A stretch of 64,000 nucleotides of DNA, from the NCBI RefSeq assembly GCF_009914755.1, contig NC_060936.1. One strand, given 5' to 3'. The notes below the pieces were generated by a model that saw only the letters and a program-made list of their open reading frames with translations, had not been told where the DNA came from and searched no databases. The position numbers were made by a program, and so were the translations under genes. Each line of letters opens with the position of its first letter. Within the stretch, counting starts at the first letter, position 1. The DNA comes from the human T2T-CHM13v2.0 reference genome, Homo sapiens. Below are positions 28,792 to 63,008 of this stretch, piece after piece.

Positions 28792-28839
28792 ATGGAGAAA
28801 TTAATTATTCTGCTGCTCTGGTTACAGTATGTTGTTAAG
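28792..28839 (+). CDS. Exon A: start codon and signal peptide MEKLIILLLWLQYVVK
   Basis: ttactttgcag|ATG, donor AAG|GTAAGA, hydrophobic h-region, phase 0 end. Confidence 0.8.
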
Positions 28840-29699
28840 GTAAGACATTTTTGAGTGCACCCTCTTTGGAATAATTAGCTAATGGGCAAGATGTGATTGC
28901 ATTGAATCTATCATTCTGGAAAATAAGGAGTATACTGAAGGGAAATAATGCTAAATATCAGGTTTAGTACCTAAGAAAAAAAATTTTCTTTGCTAGGTGT
29001 CACTCACATATGTATTTTTATAGCTTAAAAATTGTGTTGGAGATAATCATGGAGATAAATCAGAATTTGGGAAGAAGACAGAGTATAATAAGGCATTTCA
29101 GAGTTGTTTTTGGTAGGAATTTTGATACATATATTCTTTTGAAAGTTGAAATTTTTTTGTCATTGAGGGAACATCAAGGGTCTCTGATTCTGTGGTCTAT
29201 CTTACTTTGTTTGCTAATATTTTCATTATGCATAGATGAAATAAGGGTCTAAAATGACTCAGTGTCAAACATTTTGTACCCAAATGTATTTTCTTTGCAA
29301 ACGTGTTGTCAAGAATGTCTGCAAAATAATTCAGTTTTGTAGACATTATCCCCAAGGTTCACAATTGGCACTCCAGGAGGGTTTGCCATGTTTTCTCTAA
29401 GATTTTGAGTCTCTGCCTCTTCCCTTACCCCAGGGATACAATGTTTCTTAGTTAGAGAGACATGGATCTTAAATTTCCATGCTCTTATTTTACTTGCTTT
29501 ACTGAAGTCATTTTCAAAATTATATTTATAAATAGAGTAGCTGACAGAGTAATTCATGTGTAGACACTGATACTGCTGAAATGTTTAAAAATTATAATTT
29601 CATGTATTTTAGGTGTCATTTTAATAAATCTGCTTATAAAATAACAATCAAGAATGCATTTTTACTGTTTTTTACAGTTTTTTCGCTTTTCCATTTTAG

Positions 29700-29837
29700 A
29701 TCTCAAAAAATTTTCATTATATACCAATGAATAAACAAACAACAGAAGTTTTTATTGAATGGGATGAATTTCCTAAGGGAGGAAATCCTGAATTTTATTT
29801 TTTAAAATATCAACTTGTTAATGATTTTGCTCAAAGA
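29700..29837 (+). CDS. Exon B: FN3-like module 1, N-half
   Basis: ccattttag|, ISKNFHYIPMNKQTTEVFIEWDEFPKGGNPEFYFLKYQLVNDFAQR, |GTAAGG; phase 0-0. Confidence 0.8.
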
Positions 29838-30249
29838 GTAAGGAATCTTTTCTTGGTTCTGATAAAAAGTAAGCATAGTGTAAATCTGGTGTTACCAAGT
29901 GCCACATTGTAAATAGGAACCTAATAGTTATCAGGGTTTCTTATTTTATTAATATATAAAATGTTAGCATTTTTTGAAATATATTTAATAAGTAGATGAT
30001 CAAATAATATTTAACTTTTTCATAGGAATGACTATTTGTCTTTTTAGAATGTATATACCAAAGGAGAATAATTCTTTAAAAAATGTCTTTTATGTAGAAA
30101 TAAACATTTCATATATATATTTATATTCCACATTGAAAAACTACTTTTATGAAGGAGATATACAAAAGTCAAATTTTTAATTAATGTGCCTGGCTTAGAG
30201 ATAATGTTCAATAAACATTTCTTAAGCAGATGAATATAATTATTTGCAG

Positions 30250-30385
30250 AATGTAAAAAGTATTCTCGCAGACCCACAAAGATGTCAGAAATTAATAATA
30301 ACACTAAAGGAAAATGAAGATTATCACATCATTTTACAGTCCATGAGATATGGACAAATTTTAAGTGAAAAGTCATTTCAAATTC
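30250..30385 (+). CDS. Exon C: FN3-like module 1, C-half
   Basis: tttgcag|, NVKSILADPQRCQKLIITLKENEDYHIILQSMRYGQILSEKSFQI, |GTAAGT; phase 0-1. Confidence 0.8.
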
Positions 30386-30826
30386 GTAAGTAATGTATAT
30401 GTTGATCAACTATGTAAACTTTCATTACCAGATAATTTAAATTTTACAATGATTAACAGGTATAAAATGGTACTGTAAAATTATAATAGTATTATTTTTT
30501 ACATAATGTAAATCTCAGAATTTAAAGAAAATTATAAACTGAGGTAAGAATATAGTTTTAAGTTTTGGCATTTTATGTGTACTAGTGTGAATGGATAGGT
30601 AGAGTGGAGATTTTACGTGTTATCCAGATTATGTAAAAAATATAATGTGGTTCTGTAATCTAATTCATTCATTCTATGTAGAATAGAAGAAACTCCCATA
30701 TAGTCTAGAAAATATTTTATGGGTAGATAATGTTTTCTCATCATGGTGAATCATGTAACTCAATATCCTTTGTGTTTCATTCAATTTTATTTGAATCTGT
30801 GCTAATTATTCTCCCTGATTTTTTAG

Positions 30827-31084
30827 GTGGAATCTCAACTAGCAATATTAAAACAATAGCAACAAGTACAAGTATTTCTTTTAACTGGAGTGTGCCCTCT
30901 TCCAAAGATATATCAGTGTCAATATCTTTCAATAATTATTCACAAATTATGCAAAATAATGTTATGGTTTATGAGTGGGGTAATTTAAAACCTGCAGCTT
31001 TTTATGCTTTCACATTTGAATTTAAACAGTTACACTTGGATTTCATAAATATATTTCAGAGACTGGATGTTCAAGTTGAAACAG
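30827..31084 (+). CDS. Exon D: FN3 module 2
   Basis: 258 bp, phase 1-1. GISTSNIKTIATSTSISFNWS...WGNLKPAAFYAFTF...VET carries the FN3 W and LxPxxxY motifs. Confidence 0.85.
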
Positions 31085-32459
31085 GTATATAGACATTTGG
31101 TTCATCATTCATTATATATTTATTATATATTTTGTAGATAATGTAGCAGTTGTATTGTATTTCAAAAGAAAGTGATCTGGCCAAGTATTAATCACTGCAG
31201 GCTGCTTGTAATCAAATTAGCATAGTCTCCTTTTTTGACTATATCATTCTGGTATCTGACTGATTATTGAACAAGCTGGACTTAGCGGAGTAATGGTAGA
31301 AACCAACCTAATAACTTTATTTTCTTCCCAGCACTTCCTTTAAACCCAAGTGGGTTCTCTTTTTCTTTACTCTGACAAAGAGTCATACAAATTCCATAGC
31401 GTTTTAGGTTACTTTAATGAGTCAACAAACAGTCTCATTTTCAGGTATTACAAGATCCATTACAATATATTACAAACACACTGATCTTTCATCCTATTTA
31501 AAGCTTCTCTGTTACTCATCTATGATCAGACCTGACCACAATTAGGAAAAGTTTAGGGGAAAGGTGAATGTGTTCAATTTTAGGGTCTTCCTAGTTTCAT
31601 GTCTTTCCTCCACAAGGTGGGAACAGGTAGAAGGGGACAGAATCATAGATAGCTGATGAGGGCAGGACACTCTTTGTGACGGTCTGAGAGTGTCATTTTA
31701 ATATCCCCTACAGGAATAATAAAAAAGATACAACACATGTATTGTACAAGTGAAGTATAGAAACACTCAAATAGGAAGAAAAAATAAAATAAGGTAATTA
31801 AGCGTCCTTTCTCCTGTGGGGAAAAAAAAAGACAAAAGATCTTCAGAACTTTCTCACATATTCCTACTGTGTTGAGTTGAGGCACTGGTAGAATATTAAC
31901 ATGAACTGATGTGCAATATTTTCTCTGAACAGGCTGCTATTTTCTCCAGTCTTTCTGTGGTACATAATCTTGGAGAATAACGCTAAGCAGCCATTCCTGC
32001 TTTTTTTCTGGAAGGTAAACACTTTTGAAGTCAAGTGACTGAGAGCAAAATTTTTAGCAAGCATTGTGTCTAGTACTCCAAAATAAAAAGAAACCTGAAA
32101 TGTGATAAAAAGTTTGCTACCAATACAAAAGTAAGGGAAAAGAAAGGCAATCTAAAGTAAGGTTTTCTTTAGAAAGAAAAACATCGTTTTTTATTTTAAT
32201 AAAGTTATAATTGGACAATAATTCTGCATAACTAATTCTTACAGCTATTTAAAAAACCATGTTAATTGGTGGTAGTTTATTTGCTCCTTGATTAATAAAC
32301 AAAGCTTTAATATTTTTATTGGTTTGAAAGTAGTATAGGGAAGGTGCACACTTAATACTATGAGGTTTTCATAATTAACTTGTATACATATTAAGAAATA
32401 TAATTATGAAATGTTATATTACTGAATTCATCTTTAACAGGGGATTTTTCTTTTGGTAG

Positions 32460-32674
32460 GATCGTGTTCACAAGGATGGGCAGCATTAAAAAATAACTGT
32501 TATAGAATTAACAATGACAGTAAGCCATGGAATATAGCCCAGCAACATTGTAAGTTATCCTTAAGTTCTGCACACCTTGTGGATATAAAAAATGAAGAGG
32601 AAAAAAGTTTTGTATTTTCGTATCTCAGGTCAAACAATCAAATAATAATATGGACTGGTCTTAATGATATGAAG
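32460..32674 (+). CDS. Exon E: C-type lectin-like domain, N-half
   Basis: SCSQGWAALKNNCYRINNDSKPWNIAQQHCKLSLSSAHLVDIKNEEEKSFVFSYLRSNNQIIIWTGLNDMK; CxxGW...CY, W..A...C and WxGL motifs; phase 1-0. Confidence 0.9.
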
Positions 32675-33701
32675 GTCAGTAAATGTAAAGAGATACATAT
32701 ATTGTGATAAATGAAACTTTATTATCTATATTCATTCATGCATTCTTTATTCATTGATTTCTTCCTTCATTAATTCAATACAGTTTCTCTTTCTATAGAT
32801 ACCCAGTTTAATATATTTTTAGGCATCTTTTTTAAAACCTAATTTTCCTTTAATTTTGGTATTCCCCAGACCATTTCTAAGTTCATTTGAGTGATTTCAT
32901 CCATTTCTTCACTCAATTTATCACCTGAACCACCAATTATTCCTAAATTCTTTATCTAGTCTACTTTCCTCTTATGAGTCCAGACATATATCTAATTTTC
33001 TTCTGATTATCCCTCTGGCACTTCTTGCAGACACTGTAACATTGCCAAGACTGAACTTGCCTTCTCCCTCTAATCAAACCTGTTTCACTTCCTTTATTCC
33101 TCATCTCTGCAAACAGTGCAATAATATGAACCCCAAAACATGAAAAGTGTTTTTCCATTTTCTTCTTTTCACTCCACACATCAGTCTTGTGAAGCTCAAT
33201 TTTACTAAAAGCAATACAGAAAGATCTGGAGATTTTATTTAACACTAGTGAAATAAGGAGTGTGTAACATTTTTCTTCAACATTCCTAACACTTTGGAAA
33301 GTCTCATGAAACTTCATTTGGTCAGCATTTTGTAGAGAAACTCAAGACCTAACATAGTCATCTCTGTCTGTCTGTGTTTTCTTCTTGATGATCCACTGAC
33401 TTTTATTTCCTGGCACTCAAAGATAAATATGTTCTCCTTGAGATATCCTTATCTATAGTGAACTAAGGCAGATCCTACCAATTTGATGCCAACTTTCCTG
33501 TGGAGCTTTGCATAAGCTTGGGAAAACCTCTAGGAATCCTTAATTGCATTTTAAAAATTATTATTTTATTGAGTTTTCTTTATCTTTTAATAGGCAATGA
33601 ATGAAATTCTAATAAAGATTCCTTAAATCACAATTCATCTTAGACATCTCAGACTCCCTCTCCCAGCATGCCAGTCTCTTCTTAGCAAGTAGACCAGTTA
33701 A

Positions 33702-33831
33702 TGTGTGTGTGTATATATATATATATGTATATACACAACTATATATGTATACATATATAGTTGTGTGTGTATATATTTGTGTATATATATACACATATAC
33801 ACACATATATATACATACACACACACACACA

Positions 33832-33863
<32 letters not shown>

Positions 33864-33866
33864 TAC
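33702..33866. repeat. (TG)n/(TA)n/(CA)n compound microsatellite
   Basis: Direct inspection. Confidence 0.9.
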
Positions 33867-35223
33867 AGTTGTTTCCTACTGTTAGCATGATATATTAGGA
33901 AATTGGGGCACAGGGAGATTCACTTGCCCATATGGACATGCATCAGATGCTACCCTTAACCATGATATTTTGAGGTTGACATCAAAGTTACCTGCTACAT
34001 CATAATCCCCATGGTAGGTTCAGAAAGTAATTACTCCTTTAAGTAAATCTGTGCTGAATAAGTGCAAAATTGTTACTGGACTTCAAGGATGGAGAGTGTG
34101 TCTTATTCAGCATTCCATTCCTGGCTTCAAACTGGGGTTTGGTACTCAACAGGAACGTAATGAATGAAAGATTAATAGTCTCTTTCTTTCCTTTTGGGAT
34201 GCTTGCATAGGTAACCTTCATTTAGTTTTCACCTTATAGTTGTAGTAGGTGCTATCATTATTCCCATTTTATACAGGAAAATAGATCTTAGAGAGATCCT
34301 GGGGCACATAACTTATCAATGCCCATTCCAGGCCTTGAATTTATATCTGTCTGACCAACTCTCATGCCCTAATCACTTGAAATACTATCACTGATCATAT
34401 GCCTATTTTTAAAACTACAACAATACATATGTAATAAAGCAGACTTTTTGAGGAAATAGTATTTCTTCATTCTGTTAGGTGGAATTTGAATGCATTGTTT
34501 TAAAATCTTTTTAAAATGTCCAGAGGAAACAGGTCTCTTTAATTCTTACCCATGCAGCTTGGTTGGTGCTGTGCTTGATTTTGGGGATGGTCTGATGACC
34601 AAAATATAGACATAGTATCTGTTTTCATAGTGTTAATTATCTCTGTAAGTATTACATTTATTTTTTAAGGAGGTGTTATGTATTCGCTGTATTATAAACA
34701 TACTCTCTAAAACTATTGACAACTATGCAAAGTAGTCATGATTATTTCCATTGCACAGGCAAGAACATTTAGTTTCTAAGATTAGTAGTTGCCCAAGAGT
34801 AGATAGTTAAGTGTCAGAAATATAATTAGTATGCAGGAGTATTTTGTCAAAGCTTATACTTTTTTTCAACTACCCCTTTCAAGAAGGATAGATATATGAC
34901 AGATATTTATTACTTGTGAAAATTGGGTTGGTGACATTCACCAAGGACATCCTTTAGAAGGAAGGTATCAACAACCTCTCCTGACGCATGCAATTTATTT
35001 GATGATTTCAAATGAAATAACTAACATTTAATGAATATTTTCTCTGAGCCTCATTGTGTTGAGCCTTTGAATGTACTGCCTCTTTAATCATTACAACAAC
35101 CTTAAGATGTAGTTTCTATTATTATACTCATTTTACAGATGAGAAAATAGAGGCTTATTGCGAGATTTGCAATTCGCCTGAAGACATATGGCTAATGAGT
35201 TAATGAAAGTGAACTCTGTCTCT

Positions 35224-35358
35224 TGCTGCTGCTGCTGCTGCTTCCTTCTCCTCCTCCTCTTCTCCTCCTCCTCCTTCTCCTCCTCCTCCTTCTCCTCCTC
35301 CTCCTTCTCCTCCTCCTCCTTCTCCTCCTCCTCCTTCTCCTCCTCCTGCTCCTCCTCC

Positions 35359-35390
<32 letters not shown>

Positions 35391-35552
35391 TTCCGCTTCC
35401 TCCTCCTCCTCCTTCTCCTCCTCCTCCTCCTCTTCCTCCTCTTCCACCGCCTCCTCCTTCTCCTCCTCCTCCTCCTCTTCTTCCTCCTCCTCTTCCTCCT
35501 CTTCCACCTCCTCCTCCACCTTCTCCTCCTTCTCCTTCTCTTTTTTCTTTTT
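35224..35552. repeat. (CTG)n-(CCT/CTT)n polypyrimidine triplet repeat
   Basis: About 320 bp of near-pure pyrimidine on the + strand, abutting the tail of a minus-strand Alu monomer. Confidence 0.95.
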
Positions 35553-35884: not shown

Positions 35885-36074
35885 AAAGAAGGTCTTCTTA
35901 CATGGGCAGATGGATCATCTTTTGGCCTTAAGAAAAATGAAATATTTTCTTTTTCATTGCTATCCAAGAATGAAACACATTGCTACATTTTACAGCAAAA
36001 TGCAACTGGATCAAACTATTTCTTTACAAGATTTTTCTGTTACGTTCCATTGCCATATGTTTGCGAATATGAAT
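35885..36074 (+). CDS. Exon F: C-type lectin-like domain, C-half
   Basis: KEGLLTWADGSSFGL...THCYILQQ...FFCYVPLPYVCEYE; WxDGS motif and the three C-terminal CTLD cysteines; phase 0-1. Confidence 0.88.
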
Positions 36075-36197: not shown

Positions 36198-36502
36198 TAC
36201 CTTCTCTGCAGGAAAGCTTTTTGCTTTACATAAAGGATGTTGGAACAACTGAAGTTGTATTATTTGGAATAATTTGAATTTTTGGAATAATTTGAATAAG
36301 TGGGTGAAATTGGGATATAATATTATCATTAAATATTCTTTAGATTATACAGAAGAACAATATTTTGAAAGCATGCCCCCAAATACTACAGAAAAAGCAA
36401 TTACCCAACTGTTTCCTGGTCATATTTATATATTTTTACTCTTCGCAATAAATGAATGGGAGGCAAAAACTACTTTAAGTCCAATATTCACTGTAGAAAC
36501 AC
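36198..36502 (+). pseudogene. Exon G: FN3 module 3 with net +17-bp frameshifting duplication (premature TGA 36275-36277)
   Basis: 305 bp. TTTGGAATAATTTGAAT occurs at 36263-36279 and 36281-36297. Removing one copy gives 288 bp, open, phase 1-1 (..EVVLFWNNLNKW..LFPGHIYIF..VET). Confidence 0.85.
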
Positions 36503-36627: not shown

Positions 36628-36947
<320 letters not shown>

Positions 36948-38355: not shown

Positions 38356-38631
38356 GCCCTTTGTCAGCCCAAAATTTCAGAGTTACACATGTTACCATAA
38401 CAGAAGTATTTTTACACTGGGATCCTCCAGATCCTGTATTTTTTCATCATTACCTTATCACTATTTTGGATGTTGAAAACAATACATCAGAAGAGGTGTT
38501 TGTTGAAAAACGCAACACAGCAACCATAGTTGGAGACCTCAAGTCTTTTCATCATTATCTGGTATATCTATTCAGTGTAGCAGAAAGAGGAACTTTAAGT
38601 TGCTTGGAGAAACCACTTTCAGTCATTACAG
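38356..38631 (+). CDS. Exon H: FN3 module 4
   Basis: 276 bp, phase 1-1; PLSAQNFRVTHVTITEVFLHWDPP...GDLKSFHHYLVYLFSVAERG...VIT; donor GTAAGC. Confidence 0.9.
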
Positions 38632-42830: not shown

Positions 42831-43004
42831 GTATTAATCCACCTCAGAAAGTTTATGTAAAACCTGAAGATGTGGGAGAAGACCATATAATTCTTCAGTG
42901 GGAACCTTCACAAGATGGCCATGAGATCTACATTCAGATTAAATCCATATCAGATCCAAGTGAAGTCATGAATAGATTCAAGATTGATAATTTAATCCCT
43001 GGAA
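42831..43004 (+). pseudogene. Exon I: 3'-truncated FN3 module 5
   Basis: Acceptor ttacttaag|. INPPQKVYVKPEDVGEDHIILQWEPSQDGHEIYIQIKSI...FKIDNLIPG, then FN3 similarity stops (no Y or F-G strands). Read-through stop at 43034-43036; only a weak cryptic donor GTAGGA at 43005. Confidence 0.75.
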
Positions 43005-46000
43005 GTAGGAAGTCCAAGATGGGCTGCTTGCGATGAATGAAGAAAGGGAGAAACTTAGGCTTTTAACTTGAGTAATTTGGGTGCTTGGTGATGACACTGA
43101 AGAAGAGAAAATTATTGGACCTTACAGTGATTCTAGCTGAAAAAAAAAATTGGTCCAAAAAATTATGCAATGATAATGTCCACACTCAACCAGTGCTAGA
43201 TCTTCCTATTTTATCATCCAAAGACTAAAACTAAATTTATGTCTGGAACTTCCATGCTTAAATTTCTAAGAAAACTACCTAAAGATAATTATAATAAGAA
43301 GTAGTTATAAAAGAGAAAACTAAGAAAGAGATATTACCAAGAAGAATTATTTAATGCCTATAAAACAACCCACTAAATAATTATTGGCATAGCAGTAGGA
43401 GTAAACTGTGAAGTTGGAAAATGATTTTTCTCCTTAGTTCATGTTTTAGCAGTCTGAGGTTAGAGAATGTCCCCATGTTATCCCAGGGTCTGTTTTCTTT
43501 CTCAAAAACTTGAGACATTTAATATATTATTTCTAAATTTCCTTCCAGGTCAAAATCAAAAGCCTCATAATTCTTTGCCTCTAGGGTACTTAGCATATTT
43601 CATCCATCTGCCATCTAAAATGTAAACTTGTTTTGCCTCTGTTTCTAGAGCTCTTGTGAAATCTTGTTCAGCTGCGTATCTCCAGCCTAAATAGAGTTCC
43701 TAGCTCTATGTAATTCAATTGTTTGTCAAACTGGTATTCAACATGGATGCAGAAACACATATTAACATGCAAATCCTAAGAAGAATAGCATTCTGGGGTT
43801 TGAAGTTAGGACAGAGATCTTGCCAATGCTCTCATGTGATATATAATTCCCAGGACAGTGTCTCTGGTCATTCAGGGCTTCTGTAATTCATTTCCAAAAT
43901 TTTCCCCATCATGGACCTAGTCTACTCTCTAGAACATCACAAAGCAAACCCAATCTATGGTTCACACGACAGGCTGCAAATGTTTAGAGACATTCATAAG
44001 GTGTCCCTGGTTCCTATATTTTCTTTCCCTGTGGGTAATTATCTTTAATTCCTTCAAGCACTCCACTATTTCTCGTGGGTGTTCTATCCAGTTCGTAGGC
44101 TTGCTATCAGATTTAGCATCACCAGATTATTTATCAGGCATCATTTGTATTGCCTCAAAAATCCTAAAGCAAATAGTAACCTGTCCCAAGGTGCATAGGA
44201 ACAAGTTTTTTTGCATGCATTCATTCAACAGATATTTATTGATACATATAATTTACCACATTGTATTTCTCTCTCTGCCATATACTTTGAAATAGTCAAG
44301 CAAGAGAGGCATTTGCCTTTTATGGGCATGTAGAAGAAAATATAATTTACACATACTTTTTTTTCCCTTTCCCCTTTGAAACTTATCTGTCTGTGCCTCT
44401 CTCTAATTTGTCCTGAACATAACCAGCAGAACTTGATCTCTAGCTATGATTGTGCACCTGAACCATAAAATGTGCCCTTAGGAAGAAGGCAGTGCTTATG
44501 AGCACAGACCATGGAAACAAATTGCCTGGGTTTGTATTCCAGCTCCATGATTTAGCAGCTTCTTACATCCTTTGCAAAGTCACTCAGGCCCTTTGGGTCC
44601 TCAGCTTCTTTCTCTCTAAAATGGGAATAATAATCATAATCTTATCTGTTTTATGAAAGTAATGTAATTTAAGGACTTGGTGCCTGGCACCAAATAAGTG
44701 CTATGACAGTGTGTGTTGTGATTTTTATTTCTCAATAGGAGTGGAGTGGTGGCCTTGGGGAGCTATGGCCATGCATAGTGGGAAGTAAAGCCATTTCAGC
44801 AGTCTGTGTGATCTCTCTTTGTTGGAGGAATTAACTATACCCAGGTTTTCTTGAGGGAAAAAGAGCTATTGGAGAGTTGGTGTTTGAATTTCCTTTTTTC
44901 CCCTCTTGACACAGGAGAATACATTTTATGATAGGAGCATCCCTCAGACTTTGTTCTACCTTGCCTATAATAAAAGGCTTTGAAATTGGCCTAGTTCAGT
45001 TCACCTCATACTGAAAAAAAAATCTTGTATAGCCCCTGATCTTACCACTTCTTTTGATAAAGCTTTTACAGGAGAGCGGATAAGGATAGAAATCACAGTC
45101 CGAGGTAGAAACTTGACGAAAGTCGCCAGTATGTGGCAATATGTTTCTTTTATTCTTTTTTTTTGTGAAATCTTTTCTCATATGATTTTTCCAGATCAGG
45201 ATATAATTTTTAAGACAAGACAGAACTCTGTCCTATTCTACACCTTTCCAGCCTTGGTGATTATAGTGTCATGCATGACACAGCTTGGCTTATTTTCTAG
45301 GACAGGTGGAAATGATCGAAAATCCCATGCTTACTCCCTAGAGGGGATGACATTGATTTTTACATACTTTTAGAACCTACATTAGACCATGCCTATTTAA
45401 AGTCACCTCTCTTTTTAGAAAATGTCTTCAGTGCCCAAGAACATGGAAGTGAATTGGTTCTATGATTATACTGGTCACTCATTTACCATCCCAAGATCTT
45501 TTAATTCCTGCTTGAGCCATACTTGGAAGCTTTCATAGATCATTGTCCACAGATTCAGATGTATTAGATATGTGTGGGATGTTACTCTTGTCTTGGGAAA
45601 CTCATAGTTACTGTAGGACTTTTATAACTGAAGGGGGCTATGCAGAATTTAAAGAGAAAACCCACAGAAAATATTAGTGATGACGGAAAAATAAAAGTTA
45701 ACATAATATAACTGGAGAAGGAAAACTATGATAAAACTGCCTCGAAACCCAGTAGTACACCATATGGAACTGGTTATGGTTCATTTATTGAACATTTCCT
45801 CATCACCAGCAAGAATTGAAAAGGCAAAAAGTTTGCAAGTTCCAGCTCACAAAAATTTGTGGAGCTAATGCACTGATTTTATGTTCTGAAATTCTCATTA
45901 TAGGTGTGTGTGGACATTCTTTCCTAAAGTACTGGCTCTGGGTAAAGTAGCAGAATAACATTATCAAATATTTAACAGTAACTTGGAACAACTTCCATTG

Positions 46001-47371
46001 TATCAAACCAGATGTCACAAATAAAACTGAAAAGGAAAGGCCATCTAATTATGCTCTGGAGGGAAAAAATTCATTTTCAGATTGTATATTTTAGGAAAAG
46101 ATATCTGCTTGGGAGAAATGCAGGCTTAAGGAAATATTGGATGCTATCCCCATAACCCACAAATCGAATTGAAATTAAAATTGACCTGAGAAAGAAATAA
46201 TGTTACTAGAAATCATCTCAAATTTTAAATCTGCTTTAAATAGCACAGTAGAGAATTGAGGTACAATCAAAATCTTTAGCAGAGTTCAAGGAGAGTGTAA
46301 AATGTAAATGAATCCTTCCTCCAAACTGTTGCCAAAAATGTGTTTCTAAAAATGAAATTACATGCCTGCTCAAAATCCCTGTTGCCTCCAGGATACAGTC
46401 TGACCTCCATAGCATGGCATGCAAAGCCCCTTACAGACACATTCAGCCTCAGAGGTGGCCCTTGTATGCCCAGTCTCATTCCTCTCATGCAGCCTGTCTT
46501 TTAACCACCCAGAGTGCCTGCTGCATGCCTGACACTACTCTAAGTACTTTATATATGAATGCAATTTCTTATGTAATCAGCACAGTGACTCTGCAATGTA
46601 GATGCTAGTCTCCTTCCCATTTTAGAGAAGAAGACCAAGGCAGAGTGGCTAAGTAACTTGCCAAAGAATACCCTGCTATTAAAGGGCTAAAAGAACTTGG
46701 TATTCCTTGAACACATGACAATGTGCTTTTTGGTTTCTATGCCTTGCCCCTGATTTTCTTTTTTTCCTGGAATTCCTTCATTACTCCCTTTTCCCCTTCA
46801 CATGTACTGTTTCTGGTAAACTTGTACTCTTTCAAGACTCAGATAAAACATCTTTAACTCTGGAAAGCCTTCCCCAATTATTTCTGCTGACATTGGTGAT
46901 TTCCTCCTCTGTTCTAAGCAAGTTTTTTTCATGTCACTAGCTCAGGTCTATTTGAGATTCTAGTTAATAATCTATAAATCTCTTTCCTGAGATTGAGAAC
47001 TCTTTGAAAGCAAGAACCTGGCCTTATTTACTTTATTTGAGCACTAATCCTTGTATATAGGTTCTCAAAAACATTTACTTAATAAATAGATTAAAAGGTA
47101 AAAAATAATGAAAAAATCTCAGATTTGTGTTTCTTGCGATTGTTATTGATAATGAATAAATGAAAGTTAATTATGTACTTTCAGTATATATGTATGTATA
47201 GCCTGTCAGAATATCTACCTTTTTTCTCTGTCTATTGCTAACATAGTAGACATAAGTTTAATGCATAAACATTTATATTCTCACAAATTCTGGAACATGC
47301 TAGATAAAATGCAGAGAAATATGATTGACCTTTAAAAGGTACTAATTATAAATCTCGTTTTTATCTTTCAG

Positions 47372-47632
47372 AACCCAAACCAGTCTGGATTGTTATCCCC
47401 TATGAAAGTCATAGTACCTCTGTAATCTTATTTGTTCAAATGCCCAATGTTGAAGTGTTTGATGGACTACATATTGTAATTGAAGGAGGGGCAAATGTGA
47501 CCATGGCTTTACACCATGGTAATAAAATAACTGTTGACAATTTAGCTCCAGACACAGAATATAATTTCTTTGTTTCCATTATCAGTGGGACTAAATTAAG
47601 TGATAGGTATTATGTGCCTGCAGTAAAAACAT
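47372..47632 (+). CDS. Exon J: FN3 module 6
   Basis: 261 bp, phase 1-1; PKPVWIVIPYESHSTSVILFVQMP...VDNLAPDTEYNFFVSIISG...VKT; weak donor GTATTT. Confidence 0.82.
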
Positions 47633-49262: not shown

Positions 49263-49393
49263 GTCTGGAAGCACCACTGAATATCCATGAAGGCAAAGTT
49301 ACAGATTCTTCTATAGACATTCTCTGGAATTGAGTTGATGGGAATTTCCAGCATTATGAAATCACATGCATAAACTATGCTGCTGCTTTCATG
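49263..49393 (+). pseudogene. Exon K: FN3 module 7 N-half with in-frame TGA (49331-49333)
   Basis: LEAPLNIHEGKVTDSSIDILWN*VDGNFQHYEITCINYAAAFM; donor GTACGT; phase 1-0. Confidence 0.85.
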
Positions 49394-49563: not shown

Positions 49564-49693
49564 GTTCAGAAGGTAGTTCAAGAAACAGCAATATTCTCTA
49601 ACCTGGATCCTGCCACAGTGTACACCTTTTCTATTCGGGCTGAAAAAGAAGGTTTTAAAGACATTACTGCTAACATAAAAGAAATACAGACAG
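49564..49693 (+). CDS. Exon L: FN3 module 7 C-half
   Basis: VQKVVQETAIFSNLDPATVYTFSIRAEKEGFKDITANIKEIQT; phase 0-1; weak donor GTTACC. Confidence 0.82.
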
Positions 49694-51056: not shown

Positions 51057-51207
51057 CCCCAAGTGCAGCTGAATTTATGAAACATAGCAGAGACCCAAAT
51101 GCAGTAACTGTTAGCTGGCCTTCAGCTAGAAGTCTTCTGGATGGATATATTATTTCAATATCCAGTGAAAGCTTAATGAGAGAAGAAATTCTGCCCTCCA
51201 CTAAAAG
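51057..51207 (+). CDS. Exon M: FN3 module 8 N-half
   Basis: PSAAEFMKHSRDPNAVTVSWPSARSLLDGYIISISSESLMREEILPSTK; phase 1-2; donor GTATGA. Confidence 0.85.
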
Positions 51208-51641: not shown

Positions 51642-51748
51642 GACATTCACATTTAATAGCCTTTCTCCAGGGACTGACTTTTTAATTAGTATTATGACTA
51701 ACAAGGGACTGAAAGGAAGCCATCCTACTGTCCTCATGGTTAGCACTT
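51642..51748 (+). CDS. Exon N: FN3 module 8 C-half
   Basis: (R)TFTFNSLSPGTDFLISIMTNKGLKGSHPTVLMVST; phase 2-1, matching exon M; donor GTAAGT. Confidence 0.85.
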
Positions 51749-54075: not shown

Positions 54076-54170
54076 ATCCAGATCCATCAGATTTGCTAAT
54101 CTGGGGGCAAGAAGAAAACACGATATGTTTGTCTTGGAAACTATCAGAAGGAGGGTTTGAAAAGTTTCAG
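54076..54170 (+). CDS. Exon O: FN3 module 9 N-half
   Basis: PDPSDLLIWGQEENTICLSWKLSEGGFEKFQ; phase 1-0; CAG|GTAAAG. Confidence 0.82.
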
Positions 54171-54758: not shown

Positions 54759-54828
54759 TGGTAGTCTGTGGGAGCAATAAACATTTCCAGTGGTAGTCTG
54801 TGGGAGCAATAAACATTTCCAGTGGTAG
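54759..54828. repeat. Perfect 32-bp tandem duplication
   Basis: TGGTAGTCTGTGGGAGCAATAAACATTTCCAG x2 followed by TGGTAG. Confidence 0.95.
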
Positions 54829-56105: not shown

Positions 56106-56297
<192 letters not shown>

Positions 56298-56299
56298 TA

Positions 56300-56643
<344 letters not shown>

Positions 56644-56852
56644 GGAATCTCAGAATTGTAATGGAACTGAAGGCATAGTCTAGTCCAAGCATGAAAATAA
56701 ACATTGGCTTGCATATTTCAGACCCAAAAGAATTCATTGTGAATTTAGAAAACATAAGGTAGTTGACATAGAATATTTATGAAAGTTTGCCATTTTCTTT
56801 CTTATACCTTTCAGCTGTTTTTTATGAGCCTTGAGTATATTTTTATTATAGG

Positions 56853-57325
56853 CAGCACTGTCCAATAGAAATACAGTATTAAGGGAACCACAAAAGTGAA
56901 GCATATGTGTACAATTTAAAATTTCTAGTAGAAATATTTTAAAAAGTAAAAAAGTGAAATTAATTTTAGTAATATATTTTATTTACCTCAATATATTCAA
57001 AATGTTAACATGTAACCAGTATAAGAAGCATTAATGAGATATTTTTATATCACTTTTTCATACAAATTCTCCAAAATCTAGTGTCTGTTTTATACTTAGA
57101 ACACATCTCAGTTGAGACTAAACACATTTTAAATATGGGGAGGGATAGCATTAGGAGATATACCTAATGTAAATGATGAGTTAATGGGTGCAGCACACCA
57201 ACATGGCACATGTATACATATGTAACAAACCTGCACATTGTGCACATGTACCCTAGAACTTAAAGTATAATAAAAAAATAAATAATAGAGACAGGTGGCA
57301 AGTGGCTATCATATTGGACAGCATA
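56853..57325 (+). mobile_element. MER33-like hAT-Charlie DNA transposon interrupted by an L1 3' end
   Basis: TIRs CAGCACTGTCCAATAG ... TATTGGACAGCATAG; internal GTGAAATTAATTTTAGTAATATATTTTATTTA. Confidence 0.8.
57137..57283 (+). mobile_element. 5'-truncated L1PA4/5-like 3' end
   Basis: GGGGAGGGATAGCATTAGGAGATATACCTAATG..GTACCCTAGAACTTAAAGTATAATAAAAAAA. Confidence 0.92.
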
Positions 57326-58079
57326 GTTACAGAGAGTGACTATTGTCATCTGGATTAAATGATAAAGTGGAAGAATGGCAAAAATTGGCCCATCGGTGTC
57401 CGGCTCAAATCCCACTTCTTCCTAGATGCCTCTCTGATCCCATCTGCAGGGAATGACATTTTCTTACACAGAGCTTTTTATGAAACCTCCCTTTAACTTT
57501 TTCTGTGTTACTTTTAACATACTGTCTTTGATTGTTATTAATGATGCACAAGTGCTAACATCCCTATGCCATTTCATCGAGGAATCTTTTAGTTTTCCCT
57601 AAGAGTGGAGTTCCAAAGTTACTATGTACTGAATAAAGCAGTATTTCCTTTTATTTGTCCACAGTTTCTTCCTTCCAGACCTCATGTGGTAGCCTTCTAA
57701 TGCTATGCAATCTTATATACATGTGTACGTTCAGTTTATCTGTAATTTTACAAGTTGTGGTAGGCAGTATAGTACAATGGCCCTGCGATTCCTTGCTTTG
57801 AATTCTGACTTCATTCCCTACTCTGAGACCTTGGGCAAATCTTTATCCTCTTTGGTTCTATTCCTTCATCTGACAAATGAAGATTATTTTTATTACTCTA
57901 TAAAATTGCTGTGAGAATTCCATAAGATAATGCACTTGGCAAATGCTCTGACATGCGAATTTGCTGTAGTCAGATGTTTTGTGTACTTTGGTCATTGTTA
58001 TATACTATTCCTGAGACCAATGTGTGATGCATAGCAGGAGTCAATAAATATTTTGGTGCACGATAGGTTGAATTTTTAG

Positions 58080-58560
<481 letters not shown>

Positions 58561-61500
58561 CATAGTCACTATCCTTTCTTACCAAGACCAGCAGCCTAGA
58601 TGATGGATGATAGCATTTCTCCTCTTAACTGGTTTCTCTGTTTCCGTTTGTGATTTCCTTACAATTCATATAACATTGGTTGAACATCCTCTAGTGGATT
58701 TTCATTGCTCTTCAAATAAAATCTATGCTTGTCATAGTTTCCAAGATCTCACCTGATTGGATTTTTATCTAACTATCCAGCTCACTCAGTTACTATGTCT
58801 CAATCATATGTATCTCTCTCCTCCTCAAACATGCCAAGCACACCCACCCTACATGGTTTTAATGCTTGACATTCCCATTGTACGTGCATCTTCCCTCCAG
58901 TTTTGGTTAACCTTTTTCTGTCACTGAGTTCTCAGCTCGAATATAATCTCCCTATACCCTTCCCTGATTACCAAATCATACCAAAAGATGTGATTCATGC
59001 TCATGGAAAAGAGGTGAGGATATTCTACACTAGCAAGGTCACAAAGTCAGGAATTAGTATTCTATTTGTCATTTGTAAATGTCATTCAGTGATAGGGGCA
59101 TCCTGAATAATAAATCACTCATGAAAAATTCCATCCTTTCCAGAATGATTCAATTCATTCCTATATTCACTATAGGTATTCTGTAGTGAAAACCTTACAC
59201 ATTTTTAATATTAATTGTAAAAGATTTATGTTTCTTAACCTTTTCTGTTTGTTCTAATTCTTACATCTTAAGGCAAATGTCAAATGGAATGATCTTCTAT
59301 GGGGTTAACTGAGGCCATAAAACCATTTTTTGTCAGTTAAATATATATACGATTACTTTTTACTCTATTTGAGCACATTTTTTCAGCGATATAAATTATG
59401 TATGTTATTAAGTGAAACTGATTTTAAGGAAACATATTAATCTTTAAGGTTCAGAATATTACTGACCACATTATATCACTAATGGTTATCTGAGTCTTTC
59501 TTGGCCAGTTAGATTATTTGTTAAATTTTAATGAATTAGGTAACAGTATCCTGGTTGCTTAGCAAAGCGCACTTGGATAATTGGGATCATTTCTCTAATC
59601 ATTTAAAATTAATCATCACATGCCTCCAAAGTATGATTTAAAAGTGGAAATAAAACACAAATTACATTTCTATTAGGCATGTGTATTCTACATAATTTTT
59701 GGAGGGGATAATCCTCTATTTTTTGAATTACATATTAAAAAATTAGTCAAACACTATTATCATTAGATCACTACAGTTTCTTTTCCTTCTACCCTTCGGT
59801 AATGTCTTAATGTGACTATGCCTGAACTTAGCACTTCATTAAGATTATATTCTACTATAATTGCATGATATTTTCTCCTACCATCCTTTTTCATACCAGA
59901 AGTTCTTAGCATTCTACTCACTCCATATGTCAGACAAGTAAGGTAATTATCAGTGACACCTTATGAATCAATAAGCAATGGTATGCTTCTAGACCTCAGG
60001 ATTATCTTCTTCATTAATGAAGCACTTTTCCCACAAGACAGTGATAACTATGTCTGCTTAGGAAATTTGTTTGACTTCTACCATATAATAGCTGTTTTTC
60101 AAAGCATAACAAAGTTTAAATAACTTATAAAGTTGACGTATCTTTCTTTCCATTCTACAAACATGAAGTATGGAATGAAGAAGAATAAAGATTGTTATAA
60201 GTAGCTTTTAATGGATTAAAAAAAGCTCCAGGTTATTGGAAATATCAGATTACTCCACTGAAAATTTCTAAAGGCAATGCTCACTCTCAGAGCTTTAATG
60301 AATAATACATAGACTTGGCCTAGGTTATGATGAAAGATGGACCAGAATGAAATGTGAATTTATCATTTATTCACTAATTTATGCAACAAGAACTGGGAGT
60401 GCCTTTTCTATTTCAGGTGTCTATTATTGTAGTTCTCTCTCGTTGCTTTTTACTACTCCCCTGACTATACTGACTGGCTTTCACTGATATCTGATTAACA
60501 GTTCTTCAAACACTGGCTGTCTCCTGAGGCACATATGTGAGTTTTCTGGAGGACCTTGGAGGTTATTTCCATTGCCTATTTCCTTGACTTGGCAGACCCA
60601 GCTCTGGTTCAACATTTGTAACTCCTATTAGCTCCTTCATCTGGCATCATATCTCACTGGTTTTTGCTGCTAGGTCTTCTTGCACAGTGACAGTGATCTT
60701 GGGTTGGGTAATGGTAAGATGATCCAAGACTGATCACTCTCTGTTGTCATACTTGACCCATGGGAGACTCTGGCATTTTTGTTCAGGCAAAGGTGGGTGT
60801 ACAAATTGCTCCACAGCAACACTTTATTTGTTCTGCTTTCTGTTTCTAGTTTCCCTTTGCTCTGCTCAGTAAGGAATAGGGGCAGAGCAGGAAGTCTGCT
60901 GCCTAAGTACCTGTCCAATTGAGAGATGTCAATCCTTCTAGCAGGCACTCTAGATGTACGGTAGTGATACACATGGGCCCCTCCTCATTTAGCTGGAGTC
61001 AGAATGTGTGCAGAAGCACCTTATTTCCCATTCTGTGGGCAGCCAAGGAAAAGCCATGATATTCTCTGCTAGGCCAGAAACTTGGGACCCCATTGATTTT
61101 CTTCTTTCCCTTCCTATAGTCTTCTGTTTACATGGAGTTGAGAGAGTAGGTCGTAGGTACTATCCATAATGATTAGCTATCTCTAAAATACATTTTTACA
61201 TTTTTTTGTTTCAGGTGTGCAGAAGAGTAAGGCCTACTCTTTATGTAATGTATCTATTATATGCATATACACTTAAAAATCAGTATTTGTGTTTGTATGC
61301 GTATATATACATGTGAAATTTAAAAACACATGGAGTCTATTGGTCTTTTATTACATAAACTTCTAAGACAATCCACTATGCTTATCACTCTGTGAACTTC
61401 ACTGAGTTATTCTGCCTCTACTAGCCTAAAATTATTCCTTAGTGAACATAGGAAGGATCACAACCTCTACCTTGCAGTAGTAATTACTATAAATATGATT

Positions 61501-61561
61501 ATTACGGAATTAGTGCTTTTTAAAGTTTGGAAAATATAAATTTACTTTTCTCTTTCTCTAG

Positions 61562-61727
61562 ATATCATACTGCATGCCATCCAGACAGGAAAAGCTGATT
61601 AAAGTGATTGTTTATGGCAACAAAGCCAAAGTAAAAAAATTGACTCTGGGCATGGACTACATGTTTCAAGTGAAGAAAGTTAAAGGCAAAGGTTACAGTG
61701 TATCTGTAATGAAAAAAGTGCCTATAA
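61562..61727 (+). CDS. Exon P: FN3 module 9 C-half
   Basis: Strong polypyrimidine acceptor; ISYCMPSRQEKLIKVIVYGNKAKVKKLTLGMDYMFQVKKVKGKGYSVSVMKKVPI; phase 0-1; GTAAGG. Confidence 0.8.
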
Positions 61728-62750
61728 GTAAGGAAAGATCATAGGTAGTATTTAGTTTTATAGTTCTGTAACACTTGAAAATATTTTGGCTAAGCATGAT
61801 TATGGTTGTTTTAAGACATAAAAGCTGATAAGTAATGATGATCTTAAGAATATGATTAAGAGAACTCAAAAAACATGTGAATTTAAAAAATTATTTGTAT
61901 GTCTAGATATATTGAGAGCTACACACAGAGTTTTTAAAAATAATCTGAAGCCAAAAGTATGCATATATGTGTGTATGTATATATTGTTATATATGTTAGA
62001 TACATGGAATACATATGTATACACATGTATATATATTATGCCATAATAATATAAGCACAATTCATTTTCTACTGACCTGAGGGTTGATAAACAGAGTAAT
62101 TCTGTTTCTCTTTCCTGAAGTTTGTAAATTTATTATAAATTGGTTTGTAATGTTTTTGGGTGAGGTGGAATAATAGTATTAGTTATCAACAGTTCTCATG
62201 AAAATTTGTGAGGTTGCCTCTCAGTGGAGACTAAATGATAATGCAAGTAGCAACATTAGTTGTATCGATGAACAGATTAAAAATGCAGCAATATAGGAAT
62301 GCTAAAAGCTTTGATGTAACAAGAAGACATTTGGAAATGCCCTTACTCCTAGCCCTCGCTCCCTCTCTAACTTATTCTCTTTCATCTTCATTCGGTATCT
62401 AGCTATGTGCTTGGTGGTAGCTAACAAAATTCTGATTATGTCATATAAGGATATGTATGGCTACAAGCACTCAAGAGGCACAAAGCTAAAGGAATGCCTT
62501 TATCACGAATGATTTATGACTGATGAAGGAAAGATATTTGGGAACTAGAGAGAATATTGTTGTGTCACTTAAATTAAAACCCATATGTAATGTCTTATTT
62601 TTCTATTTGCAGAGATAAACATATAGAACATTATACATGAGTAAATTAAAGGACTGTTACATAGATATTTAAATTATAATATTCATAATTGCTTTATTTT
62701 TACTAATATATGTGTAATTTCTATTTATATATAATTTACCTTTTCATTAG

Positions 62751-63008
62751 AACCATCTAGGATTTGTGGCTTAATTTTGAAAGCTGTGAATATTTCTTCA
62801 AATTTAATGTGGAATACAACAGAGATCAATTTCACCCATTATAAGATTTATATATCAAATAGAACATTTGCAAAAGACTGTCTTATTTGGGAAGTGGTGA
62901 CTGAGCACACAGTTACAGATGTGACTCCTGGTGTAATATATAACATCATGGTACACAGAATAAGAGGCAACCTTGGAGGATGTGGCATGTTTACCAGGGT
63001 TGTTGCAG
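62751..63008 (+). CDS. Exon Q: FN3 module 10
   Basis: 258 bp, phase 1-1; PSRICGLILKAVNISSNLMWNTT...VTDVTPGVIYNIMVHRIRG...VVA. Confidence 0.85.

What the first reader, a model, noticed from the sequence alone, without database searches (positions are those of the whole stretch)
28792..63008. Hidden 17-exon gene for an SP-FN3-FN3-C-type-lectin-(FN3)8+ extracellular protein downstream of OTOGL
Seen: 17 exons with AG/GT ends whose phases chain 0-0-1-1-0-1-1-1-(1)-1-0-1-2-1-0-1-1. The bracketed value is exon I's weak cryptic donor. With the 17-bp duplication removed they total about 3022 nt (~1000 codons), start with a signal peptide and carry many NxS/T sequons. Several exons are absent from the ORF track because they are short. 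Known: canonical PTPRQ and other R3 receptor phosphatases have FN3-rich ectodomains, and I know of no CTLD in canonical PTPRQ. I recall PTPRQ lying directly downstream of OTOGL, with reported 5'-extended isoforms, but did not check this. Inference: either an ancestral long PTPRQ ectodomain with an N-terminal CTLD, or a separate FN3/CTLD gene between two deafness genes, now decaying in this lineage.
Basis: partly seen in the sequence, partly recalled or inferred. Interest (0 to 1): 0.92.

Follow-up and report, generated by a model that had tools for sequence, protein, structure and literature searches.

The report
Decayed ancestral front end of PTPRQ
The 17 exons are real: they are the broken human remains of a long, lectin-bearing front part of the deafness gene PTPRQ, which most other vertebrates appear to keep whole, and not a separate hidden gene.

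Summary
The exon chain is real. Each matches predicted PTPRQ proteins of other vertebrates in colinear order.

In whales, ruminants, camel, dog, pig, bats, a marsupial, turtles, birds, squamates, amphibians, sharks and one teleost, PTPRQ is modelled at about 3,100-3,450 aa. Those models start with this block: signal peptide, two FN3-like domains, a C-type lectin-like domain, then FN3 repeats.

Just past the window, an intact exon R encodes the first half of an FN3. Its second half is canonical PTPRQ exon 2. The canonical signal-peptide exon sits between them, so it is an alternative first exon.

The human copy is broken:
- a 1-bp deletion in exon G
- an in-frame TGA in exon K
- one 75-nt exon undetectable
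- neutral-like divergence from chimpanzee

I found no paper describing a lectin domain in PTPRQ. Verdict: a vestigial 5' part of PTPRQ, not a stand-alone gene. Interest is moderate.

The parts
27179..27376 (+). Putative non-coding first exon and promoter remnant of the long PTPRQ form, inside a GC-rich patch at 27100-27700. The boundaries are inferred.
   Evidence: GC is 0.52-0.67 with 25 CpG in 600 bp. The translated 5' leader of the Mustela model P0021 matches 27179-27370 at 42% identity, E 1.5e-4. A possible donor GAG|gtgggc lies at 27376. Exon A has an acceptor directly before its ATG.
28792..28839 (+). Exon A: ATG and signal peptide; phase 0 donor gtaaga.
   Evidence: It matches the start of camel PTPRQ at 78% identity.
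29700..29837 (+). Exon B: first half of FN3-like domain 1.
   Evidence: hhalign of domain 1 against the FN3 blocks gives up to 73.6% probability, in register.
30250..30385 (+). Exon C: second half of FN3-like domain 1; donor gtaagt, phase 1.
30827..31084 (+). Exon D: FN3-like domain 2.
   Evidence: hhalign against the FN3 blocks gives up to 92.7% probability.
32460..32674 (+). Exon E: N-terminal half of the C-type lectin-like domain.
   Evidence: Lectin_C at 27.7 bits against a cut-off of 22.6. 97% identical to chimpanzee LOC100615245.
35885..36074 (+). Exon F: C-terminal half of the C-type lectin-like domain.
   Evidence: Orthologues give Lectin_C over model positions 2-106 of 107.
36198..36502 (+). 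Exon G: FN3 number 3, 305 nt. It carries a 1-bp deletion at about 36262, and the first stop after it is TGA 36275-36277. It also holds the in-frame 18-bp repeat at 36263-36297.
   Evidence: The chimpanzee protein reads through here.
38356..38631 (+). Exon H: FN3 number 4, intact.
   Evidence: fn3 at 24.1 bits. 70% identical to camel.
42831..43004 (+). Exon I: first part of FN3 number 5. It has a 7-residue in-frame deletion shared with chimpanzee. The donor is gtagga.
43005..47371 (+). Intron in which the ancestral 75-nt exon (second part of FN3 number 5) can no longer be found.
   Evidence: The best local alignment score is 26 against 21-33 in 12 control chunks of the minus strand. Neither chimpanzee model contains it.
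47372..47632 (+). Exon J: FN3 number 6; weak donor gtattt.
49263..49393 (+). Exon K: first half of FN3 number 7, with an in-frame TGA at 49331-49333 where the other species aligned have R (mole Q, shark K).
49564..49693 (+). Exon L: second half of FN3 number 7.
51057..51207 (+). Exon M: first half of FN3 number 8; phase 2 donor.
51642..51748 (+). Exon N: second half of FN3 number 8.
54076..54170 (+). Exon O: first half of FN3 number 9, with a one-residue deletion.
61562..61727 (+). Exon P: second half of FN3 number 9.
62751..63008 (+). Exon Q: FN3 number 10, with a one-residue deletion; phase 1 donor gtgtgc. It is the last exon of the block inside the window. Three further parts lie beyond base 64000 (locus L009, window coordinate = L009 + 64000). 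Exon R at 70378-70538 is the intact first half of FN3 number 11. The coding part of the canonical PTPRQ first exon is at 70973-71026. Exon S at 71368-71476 is canonical exon 2, the second half of FN3 number 11, and the common acceptor for exon R and the canonical first exon.
   Evidence: For exon Q: fn3 at 22.1 bits. For the parts beyond the window: exon R is 82% identical to camel and dog with no stop and matches fn3 model positions 2-42 at 26.8 bits. The canonical ATG exon lies between R and S, in keeping with the annotated PTPRQ start at 70862. The camel stretch homologous to R+S is one complete fn3 at 50.8 bits, model positions 2-82 of 84.

Best explanation
The block is the vestigial 5' third of PTPRQ.

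Ancestral form. PTPRQ was transcribed from a promoter about 20 kb downstream of OTOGL. It encoded a receptor of roughly 3,380 aa:
- signal peptide
- two FN3-like domains
- one C-type lectin-like domain
- FN3 repeats 3 to 11
- the known FN3 array, transmembrane segment and phosphatase domain

Canonical short form. The about 2,300-aa PTPRQ of human, mouse and rat starts at an alternative first exon. That exon lies in the intron that splits FN3 number 11. It supplies a new signal peptide and splices to the same acceptor as exon R, so the short protein begins with half an FN3.

Human state. In the lineage leading to humans the long form lost constraint. The upstream exons keep their splice sites but no longer carry an open frame: there is a 1-bp deletion in exon G, a TGA in exon K, a lost 75-nt exon and a 21-bp deletion in exon I. 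In this genome they are pseudo-exons.

Shown: exon orthology, synteny, the split FN3, the lesions, and relaxed constraint. Inferred: that the long form is the ancestral functional one, that the upstream promoter sits at about 27.1-27.7 kb, and that humans make no long protein.
For: 1. Orthology.
- Dog and camel PTPRQ (first 1300 aa) each give 16 of 16 colinear + strand matches from 29700 to 63007. Exon A also matches.
- Talpa P0018, used as query against proteins of 1690-4825 aa, gave 123 hits at E <= 1e-10, of which 120 are listed. Nearly all are named PTPRQ.
- By my reading of that table 111 of the 120 carry PF00059. They come from cetaceans, ruminants, camel, dog, pig, bats, a marsupial, turtles, birds, squamates, amphibians, sharks and one teleost.
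- Camel P0036 has Lectin_C at residues 223-335, 23 fn3 stretches and Y_phosphatase at 3111-3341.

2. One gene.
- Exon R (window 70378-70538) is intact. Together with canonical exon 2 it makes one FN3, and the canonical ATG exon (70973-71026) lies between them.

3. Single locus.
- A search of the whole genome with P0018 gave 15 matches. 13 are at this locus, and the 2 elsewhere are weak, at E 3e-4 and 6.5e-4.

4. Decay.
- There is a frameshift at about 36262 and TGA codons at 36275 and 49331. The 75-nt exon is not detectable.
- Human and chimpanzee differ at 17 of 571 aligned residues (2.98%), 7 human-derived and 8 chimpanzee-derived. That is about what I recall for neutral sequence.
- At sites invariant in 8 laurasiatherians plus devil, turtle and emu, human differs at 29 of 265, chimpanzee at 18 of 151, loris at 40 of 256 and mouse lemur at 18 of 182. 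Dog differs at 14 of 335, camel at 11 of 332 and a bat at 16 of 337.
- The loss is even along the block: 12 of 108 in exons A-F and 17 of 157 in G-Q.

5. No long primate, rodent or lagomorph model appears among the 120 + 21 + 17 listed hits.
Against: - Only one human assembly was seen, so the two frame-breaking lesions could be polymorphic.
- All 17 splice-site pairs and exon R are intact. Because the FN3 exons are phase 1 to phase 1, skipping G and K+L would keep the frame. A shortened long isoform is therefore not excluded by sequence alone.
- All long PTPRQ proteins used here are automatic predictions, and I saw no transcript or protein data. The only hint is one 651-nt database record, P0003, in which exons E and F are joined.
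- About 20 mammals, including non-primates such as mole, mustelids, seals, a pangolin and a sloth, have this block modelled as a stand-alone gene.
- The constraint test uses an all-laurasiatherian reference set, so part of the human excess is branch length.
- The absence of rodent models is negative evidence from a word-seeded search.
Confidence: 0.9

Rival explanations
1. A separate secreted FN3/CTLD gene lies between OTOGL and PTPRQ, as annotated in chimpanzee (LOC100615245) and other mammals ('tenascin-R-like'). In humans it is unannotated or recently pseudogenised.
For: 21 stand-alone models of 153-965 aa contain the CTLD exon, and 17 were found at 493-1572 aa. Pangolin and ferret models end just after the CTLD.
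Against: - The stand-alone models end at different exons, mostly by reading into an intron or by skipping exons. None shows a shared terminal exon.
- More than 100 models in other species run on into PTPRQ.
- The Talpa stand-alone model itself continues into the homologue of exon R.
- Exon R encodes only half an FN3, which is completed by canonical PTPRQ exon 2.
Confidence: 0.04
2. The human block still codes. Either it makes a long PTPRQ isoform that skips the damaged exons (G, K+L), or it makes a short secreted protein with a signal peptide, two FN3-like domains and the CTLD, from exons A-F(G).
For: - Exons A-F are uninterrupted, and the ORF from the ATG runs 354 codons.
- 17 of 17 splice-site pairs are intact.
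- Exon R is intact.
- A GC-rich promoter-like patch is retained.
- Skipping G or K+L is frame-neutral given the phases.
Against: - Human-chimpanzee divergence looks neutral.
- Deeply invariant residues are lost in A-F as often as in G-Q. These include residues next to CTLD cysteines and in the conserved W-x-D-G-S stretch.
- The search with the CTLD exon found no human protein model; the best hit was chimpanzee at 97%.
- RefSeq lists nothing here, according to the hub's table.
Confidence: 0.05
3. Chance open frames or repeat-derived sequence that only look like exons.
For: Single-exon Pfam fn3 scores are all below the curated cut-off. 15% of the window is masked as repeats, according to the hub's table.
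Against: Exon-by-exon matches to orthologues reach E values down to 1e-36 or lower, are colinear and lie on one strand. Lectin_C scores above its cut-off. 97% identity to a chimpanzee model.
Confidence: 0.01

Closest known systems
Predicted long PTPRQ isoforms of other vertebrates (for example camel P0036 at 3383 aa, humpback whale P0028 at 3374 aa, emu P0060 at 3378 aa, and shark P0137 at 3226 aa)
   Same: Same exon series in the same order, the same domain order (signal peptide, two FN3-like domains, CTLD, FN3 repeats), and the same continuation into the known PTPRQ sequence.
   Different: The human copy has a frameshift, a stop codon, a lost 75-nt exon and small in-frame deletions. It is not annotated in human RefSeq (hub table). 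The long forms are automatic models; I found no paper describing them.
Canonical human PTPRQ (RefSeq NM_001145026; the 18-FN3 R3 receptor phosphatase of the literature)
   Same: Same gene and strand. It shares exon S and everything downstream. It also starts with a short signal-peptide exon.
   Different: It uses a first exon at window 70973-71026, about 42 kb downstream of exon A. It lacks the CTLD and ten and a half FN3 domains, so it begins with a half FN3. Reviews describe R3 ectodomains as made of FN3 only (passages read in PMC10815196, PMC9900141 and PMC5336234).
Stand-alone models of the same block: chimpanzee LOC100615245 (555 and 572 aa) and 'tenascin-R-like' in mole, jaguarundi and yak
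   Same: Orthologous exons; 97% identity for chimpanzee in the CTLD exon.
   Different: They are truncated at varying points and are probably artefacts of modelling a decaying or weakly expressed 5' part. The name tenascin-R-like reflects FN3 content only.
Longest PTPRB isoform, with an N-terminal Ricin B-type lectin domain
   Same: Another R3 receptor phosphatase whose longest isoform carries a non-FN3, lectin-type domain at its tip (passage read in PMC9900141).
   Different: A different fold (ricin B rather than C-type lectin-like) and a different gene. No homology is implied.
CTLDs of the mannose-receptor family (PLA2R1, LY75, MRC1, MRC2) and snake-venom C-type lectin-like proteins
   Same: These are the best sequence matches among solved structures: PLA2R1 7qsr_A at E 3.1e-19 for the whole chain, with its second CTLD at residues 356-482. 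The domain is the long form with six cysteines.
   Different: It is a single CTLD embedded in an FN3 array. By my reading it lacks the EPN/QPD and WND sugar- and calcium-binding motifs. Those motif definitions are recalled, not tested.

Membership tests
PTPRQ gene (5' part of the ancestral long form) | Position between OTOGL and the known PTPRQ exons, on the same strand | tested here: met
   The hub's annotation places OTOGL's end at 7482 and PTPRQ's start at 70862. The exons lie at 28792-63008 on the + strand. Exon R is at 70378-70538 and canonical exon 2 at 71368.
PTPRQ gene (5' part of the ancestral long form) | Exon-by-exon orthology to proteins that also contain the PTPRQ phosphatase domain | tested here: met
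   Camel P0036 has Lectin_C at 223-335 and Y_phosphatase at 3111-3341.
PTPRQ gene (5' part of the ancestral long form) | Reading frame and domain continuity into canonical PTPRQ | tested here: met
   Exon Q ends in phase 1. Exon R starts in phase 1 and ends in phase 0. Exon S starts in phase 0. In camel, R+S is one complete fn3 at 50.8 bits.
PTPRQ gene (5' part of the ancestral long form) | Open reading frame in human | tested here: not met
   1-bp deletion at about 36262, with a stop at 36275-36277. TGA at 49331-49333. The 75-nt exon is missing.
PTPRQ gene (5' part of the ancestral long form) | Human transcripts joining these exons to PTPRQ | not testable with these tools
   No expression data are available here. 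RefSeq lists no feature in this interval, according to the hub's table.
C-type lectin-like domain (Pfam PF00059) | Profile match above the curated cut-off | tested here: met
   Human exon E alone scores 27.7 bits against a cut-off of 22.6. Orthologues score 42.6-54.4 bits over model positions 2-106 of 107.
C-type lectin-like domain (Pfam PF00059) | Six cysteines of the long-form fold | tested here: met
   Six cysteine columns are invariant or at least 90% conserved in 33 sequences. All six are present in the human reading.
Calcium-dependent carbohydrate-binding C-type lectins | EPN or QPD motif and WND motif (definitions recalled) | tested here: not met
   I see none of these motifs at the expected places in the human or orthologue sequences.
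Fibronectin type III domain | Profile match for each proposed repeat | tested here: inconclusive
   Human single exons score 13.8-24.1 bits, all below the 25-bit cut-off. Camel gives 23 fn3 stretches. Domains 1 and 2 have no Pfam match in P0017, but they align in register with the FN3 blocks by hhalign at 73.6% and 92.7%. A true FN3 pair gave 61%, and CTLD against FN3 gave 0.1-0.3%. No structure was obtained.
Processed or duplicated pseudogene | Loss of introns, or a second parental copy elsewhere in the genome | tested here: not met
   The introns are retained. The whole-genome search found 13 of 15 matches at this locus and only 2 weak ones elsewhere.

The most novel reading that the evidence does not exclude
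The old upstream promoter is still active in humans. One possibility is a secreted protein of about 350 aa, with a signal peptide, two FN3-like domains and the CTLD, made from the uninterrupted exons A-F(G). The other is a long PTPRQ isoform that skips the damaged, phase-symmetric exons (G and K+L). In either case part of the lectin-bearing tip of PTPRQ would survive as a human protein that nobody has looked for.
Probability: 0.07. Interest if true: 0.7.

Novelty: new member of a known kind. Interest (0 to 1): 0.5.

Why it matters
PTPRQ is a deafness gene (DFNB84, DFNA73). It is described in print as a receptor whose outer part is FN3 repeats only.

The sequence evidence says that the form studied in human, mouse and rat is a shortened derivative. 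Most other vertebrates appear to keep a form about 1,050 residues longer, tipped by a C-type lectin-like domain. That gives a concrete candidate ligand-binding module for a receptor whose extracellular partners are unknown. It also gives a ready test: isoform-specific expression and localisation in chicken, dog or cattle inner ear and kidney.

For human genetics, the 42 kb upstream of PTPRQ contains exon-like sequence that should not be read as coding when variants are interpreted. It is also a fairly clean example of a gene losing its N-terminal third through an internal alternative first exon.

The novelty is limited, because automatic annotation already shows the long form in many species.

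Tried and rejected
- **Lost 75-nt exon.** I searched 43005-47371 in three frames with seven orthologous peptides. The best score was 26 against 21-33 in 12 control chunks, so nothing is recognisable.
- **The 17-bp duplication repair.** Rejected. The repeat has period 18 and is shared by the eutherians compared.
- **Constraint limited to exons A-F.** I tested whether only A-F, the uninterrupted part, keep constraint. They do not: 12 of 108 against 17 of 157.
- **Bacterial-type promoter and terminator scan of 26800-28900.** It found 4 promoter-like sites against 3.7 expected. This is meaningless for a human promoter.
- **Rfam on 26000-64000.** 0 matches.
- **Structure prediction of the pangolin N-terminal module.** The fold of domains 1 and 2 therefore rests on profile comparison only.
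- **Schraders 2010 (PMC2850434).** This paper may describe the human exon structure, but it is not held.
- **Literature searches.** 'PTPRQ' paired with 'C-type lectin', 'lectin domain', 'alternative promoter', 'long isoform' and 'novel exon'; the three terms 'PTPRQ', 'OTOGL' and 'pseudogene' together; and the four terms 'Ptprq', 'hair-cell antigen', 'fibronectin type III' and 'chick' together. None gave a paper describing the extension.
Full report
**What is in the sequence**

Between 28792 and 63008 on the + strand there are 17 exon-like segments, A to Q. Each is bounded by AG and GT. The donor phases are 0-0-1-1-0-1-1-1-1-1-0-1-2-1-0-1-1 and the lengths sum to 3039 nt (the end of exon J was corrected).

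Exon A starts with ATG and a hydrophobic leader, followed by gtaaga. It has an acceptor directly before the ATG, so a non-coding exon should lie upstream.

Pfam on 14 raw ORF pieces listed fn3 in 8 of 14, all below the cut-off. It listed Lectin_C above the cut-off in 1 of 14 (27.7 against 22.6 bits) and nothing in 5 of 14.

**What it is homologous to**

I searched with the lectin exon against proteins of 129-2000 aa. This gave 21 hits among 26 candidates; 20 carry mammalian names and one (P0003) is unnamed. The best was chimpanzee LOC100615245 at 97% identity. The hits are stand-alone 'uncharacterized' or 'tenascin-R-like' models of 153-965 aa. None is human.

I then searched with the longest of these (mole P0018, 965 aa) against proteins of 1690-4825 aa. 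This gave 123 hits at E <= 1e-10, of which 120 are listed:
- Almost all are named phosphatidylinositol phosphatase PTPRQ, at about 3,100-3,450 aa.
- By my reading of the table 111 of the 120 carry Lectin_C, most with the phosphatase domain as well.
- They come from cetaceans, ruminants, camel, dog, pig, bats, Tasmanian devil, turtles, many birds, squamates, amphibians, four sharks and one teleost.
- None is from a primate, rodent or lagomorph.

A third search with the loris model at 493-1572 aa gave 17 hits, again with no rodent, lagomorph or human.

Camel PTPRQ has Lectin_C at residues 223-335, 23 fn3 stretches and the phosphatase domain at 3111-3341.

tblastn of dog and of camel PTPRQ against the window gave 16 of 16 matches on the + strand, in colinear order, at 55-87% identity. 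A more permissive run added exon A.

**Why it is part of PTPRQ and not a neighbour**

The whole genome is held. The mole protein matched 15 places. 13 are at this locus, and one of them lies 6 kb beyond the window. The 2 elsewhere are weak.

In the next 10 kb (L009) there is an intact exon R at window 70378-70538, 82% identical to camel and dog. It encodes the first half of an FN3 and ends in phase 0. The second half of that FN3 is encoded at 71368-71476, which is the second exon of canonical PTPRQ.

Between the two, at 70973-71026, lies the canonical start: an ATG, an 18-residue signal-peptide exon and a phase 0 donor. This agrees with the annotated gene start at 70862.

In camel, the stretch homologous to R plus S is one complete fn3 (50.8 bits, model positions 2-82 of 84). 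Human exon R alone matches positions 2-42 (26.8 bits). Exon S matches only the C-terminal end of FN3-like models.

The canonical first exon is therefore an alternative first exon inside a domain, and the short protein starts with half an FN3.

**Architecture of the extension**

Exons B+C and exon D have no Pfam match in a pangolin model. Their profiles nevertheless align in register with the FN3 blocks of the same protein, at up to 73.6% and 92.7% probability. A pair of undoubted FN3 blocks gave 61%, and the lectin block against FN3 gave 0.1-0.3%.

The order is:
1. signal peptide
2. FN3-like domain 1
3. FN3-like domain 2
4. CTLD (exons E+F)
5. FN3 number 3 (G)
6. FN3 number 4 (H)
7. FN3 number 5 (I plus a 75-nt exon)
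8. FN3 number 6 (J)
9. FN3 number 7 (K+L)
10. FN3 number 8 (M+N)
11. FN3 number 9 (O+P)
12. FN3 number 10 (Q)
13. FN3 number 11 (R+S)

The CTLD has the six cysteines of the long form. Its best solved relatives by sequence are the CTLDs of PLA2R1, LY75 and the mannose receptors, followed by snake-venom lectin-like chains. I do not see the EPN/QPD and WND motifs of sugar-binding lectins. Those motif definitions are recalled, so I infer a protein- or non-canonical-ligand-binding domain.

**State of the human copy**

- Exon G is 305 nt rather than 306. Relative to the chimpanzee protein, one base is missing at about 36262. The frame then closes at TGA 36275-36277, 354 codons from the ATG.
It is in frame and present in all eutherians aligned, but absent from devil, turtle, emu and shark.
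- Exon K has TGA at 49331-49333, where the other species aligned have arginine (mole glutamine, shark lysine).
- The 75-nt exon that completes FN3 number 5 is not detectable in the 4.4-kb interval. Both chimpanzee models lack it too. Its absence keeps the frame but removes the last strands of a domain.
- Exon I has a 7-residue deletion shared with chimpanzee. Exons O and Q each lack one residue. The donor of J is gtattt.
- With X placed at the frameshift, the reading has a single stop in 1013 codons. The damage is therefore light.

**Constraint**

Human and chimpanzee differ at 17 of 571 aligned residues (2.98%). Two of the 17 sit at my repair site or at a model junction. 7 are human-derived, 8 chimpanzee-derived and 2 ambiguous. 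From memory, that is about what neutral DNA would give and several times the usual protein divergence.

At sites invariant in eight laurasiatherians plus devil, turtle and emu, the differences are as follows.

| Species | Sites that differ | Percent |
|---|---|---|
| Human | 29 of 265 | 10.9% |
| Chimpanzee | 18 of 151 | 11.9% |
| Loris | 40 of 256 | 15.6% |
| Mouse lemur | 18 of 182 | 9.9% |
| Dog | 14 of 335 | 4.2% |
| Camel | 11 of 332 | 3.3% |
| Bat | 16 of 337 | 4.7% |

The reference set is all laurasiatherian, so branch length inflates the primate figures somewhat. The losses are as frequent in exons A-F (12 of 108) as in G-Q (17 of 157).

My reading is that constraint was relaxed in primates generally, and that outright frame loss in the human line is recent. 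This is a rough inference, and I did not date it.

**Upstream end**

A GC-rich patch at 27100-27700 has GC up to 0.67 and 25 CpG in 600 bp. It matches the translated 5' leader of a mink model at 42% identity, E 1.5e-4. It has a possible donor at 27376. I take it as the remnant of the long form's promoter and first exon, and this is inferred.

**Literature**

Seven searches found no paper giving PTPRQ a C-type lectin domain or a 5' extension. I read passages only, as follows.
- A 2024 review of receptor phosphatase ectodomains gives 18 FN3 for PTPRQ, and its lone mention of 'C-type lectin' concerns CLEC2 and CD148 rather than PTPRQ (PMC10815196).
- A 2023 review describes R3 receptors as FN3-only. 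[quoted passage not shown]
- Two 2017 evolutionary studies of R3 receptors and uroplakins contain 'lectin' 0 times in the main text (PMC5336234, PMC5242461).
- A mouse hair-cell long-read study reports only Ptprq exons 35B and 35C as new (PMC6424336).
- The paper that set out the human exon structure (PMC2850434) is not held.
- I opened no supplements.

**Verdict**

This is the decayed 5' third of PTPRQ, not a hidden independent gene.

The long, lectin-tipped PTPRQ is visible in automatic annotation of many species. As far as I could find, it is not described in print. The open points are whether the human lesions are fixed, whether the old promoter still fires, and what the long form does where it is intact.

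Noticed in passing
window 36263-36297: Exact 18-bp tandem repeat inside exon G. It adds six residues that all aligned eutherians have, while Tasmanian devil, turtle, emu and shark lack them. It looks like a eutherian-specific in-frame insertion in FN3 number 3.
   Followed up: partly
window 35243-35540: About 300 bp of (TCC)n, 99.7 copies at 81% matches, in the intron between the two lectin exons. It produces long spurious ORFs on both strands.
   Followed up: no
window 33710-33867: Compound (TA)n/(CA)n microsatellite in the same intron.
   Followed up: no
window 54759-54828: Perfect 32-bp tandem duplication, 2.2 copies at 100% matches, in the intron after exon O.
   Followed up: no
protein P0003 (153 aa, from a 651-nt database record): It reads from intron-like sequence into exon E and then straight into exon F of a bovid-like sequence. 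That makes it a partly spliced transcript fragment, and the only hint of expression of the lectin exons seen here.
   Followed up: no
window 30727-31089 (exon D region): Weak Pfam match to Uroplakin_II (E 0.014, 15.3 bits, below the cut-off). It is curious because a 2017 paper relates uroplakins to a different, membrane-proximal part of PTPRQ. Probably noise.
   Followed up: no
G000:C12:10305161-10305307 (minus strand) and G000:C19:58294218-58294553 (minus strand): These are the only matches to the mole protein outside this locus in the whole genome. Both are weak, at E 6.5e-4 and 3.3e-4.
   Followed up: no
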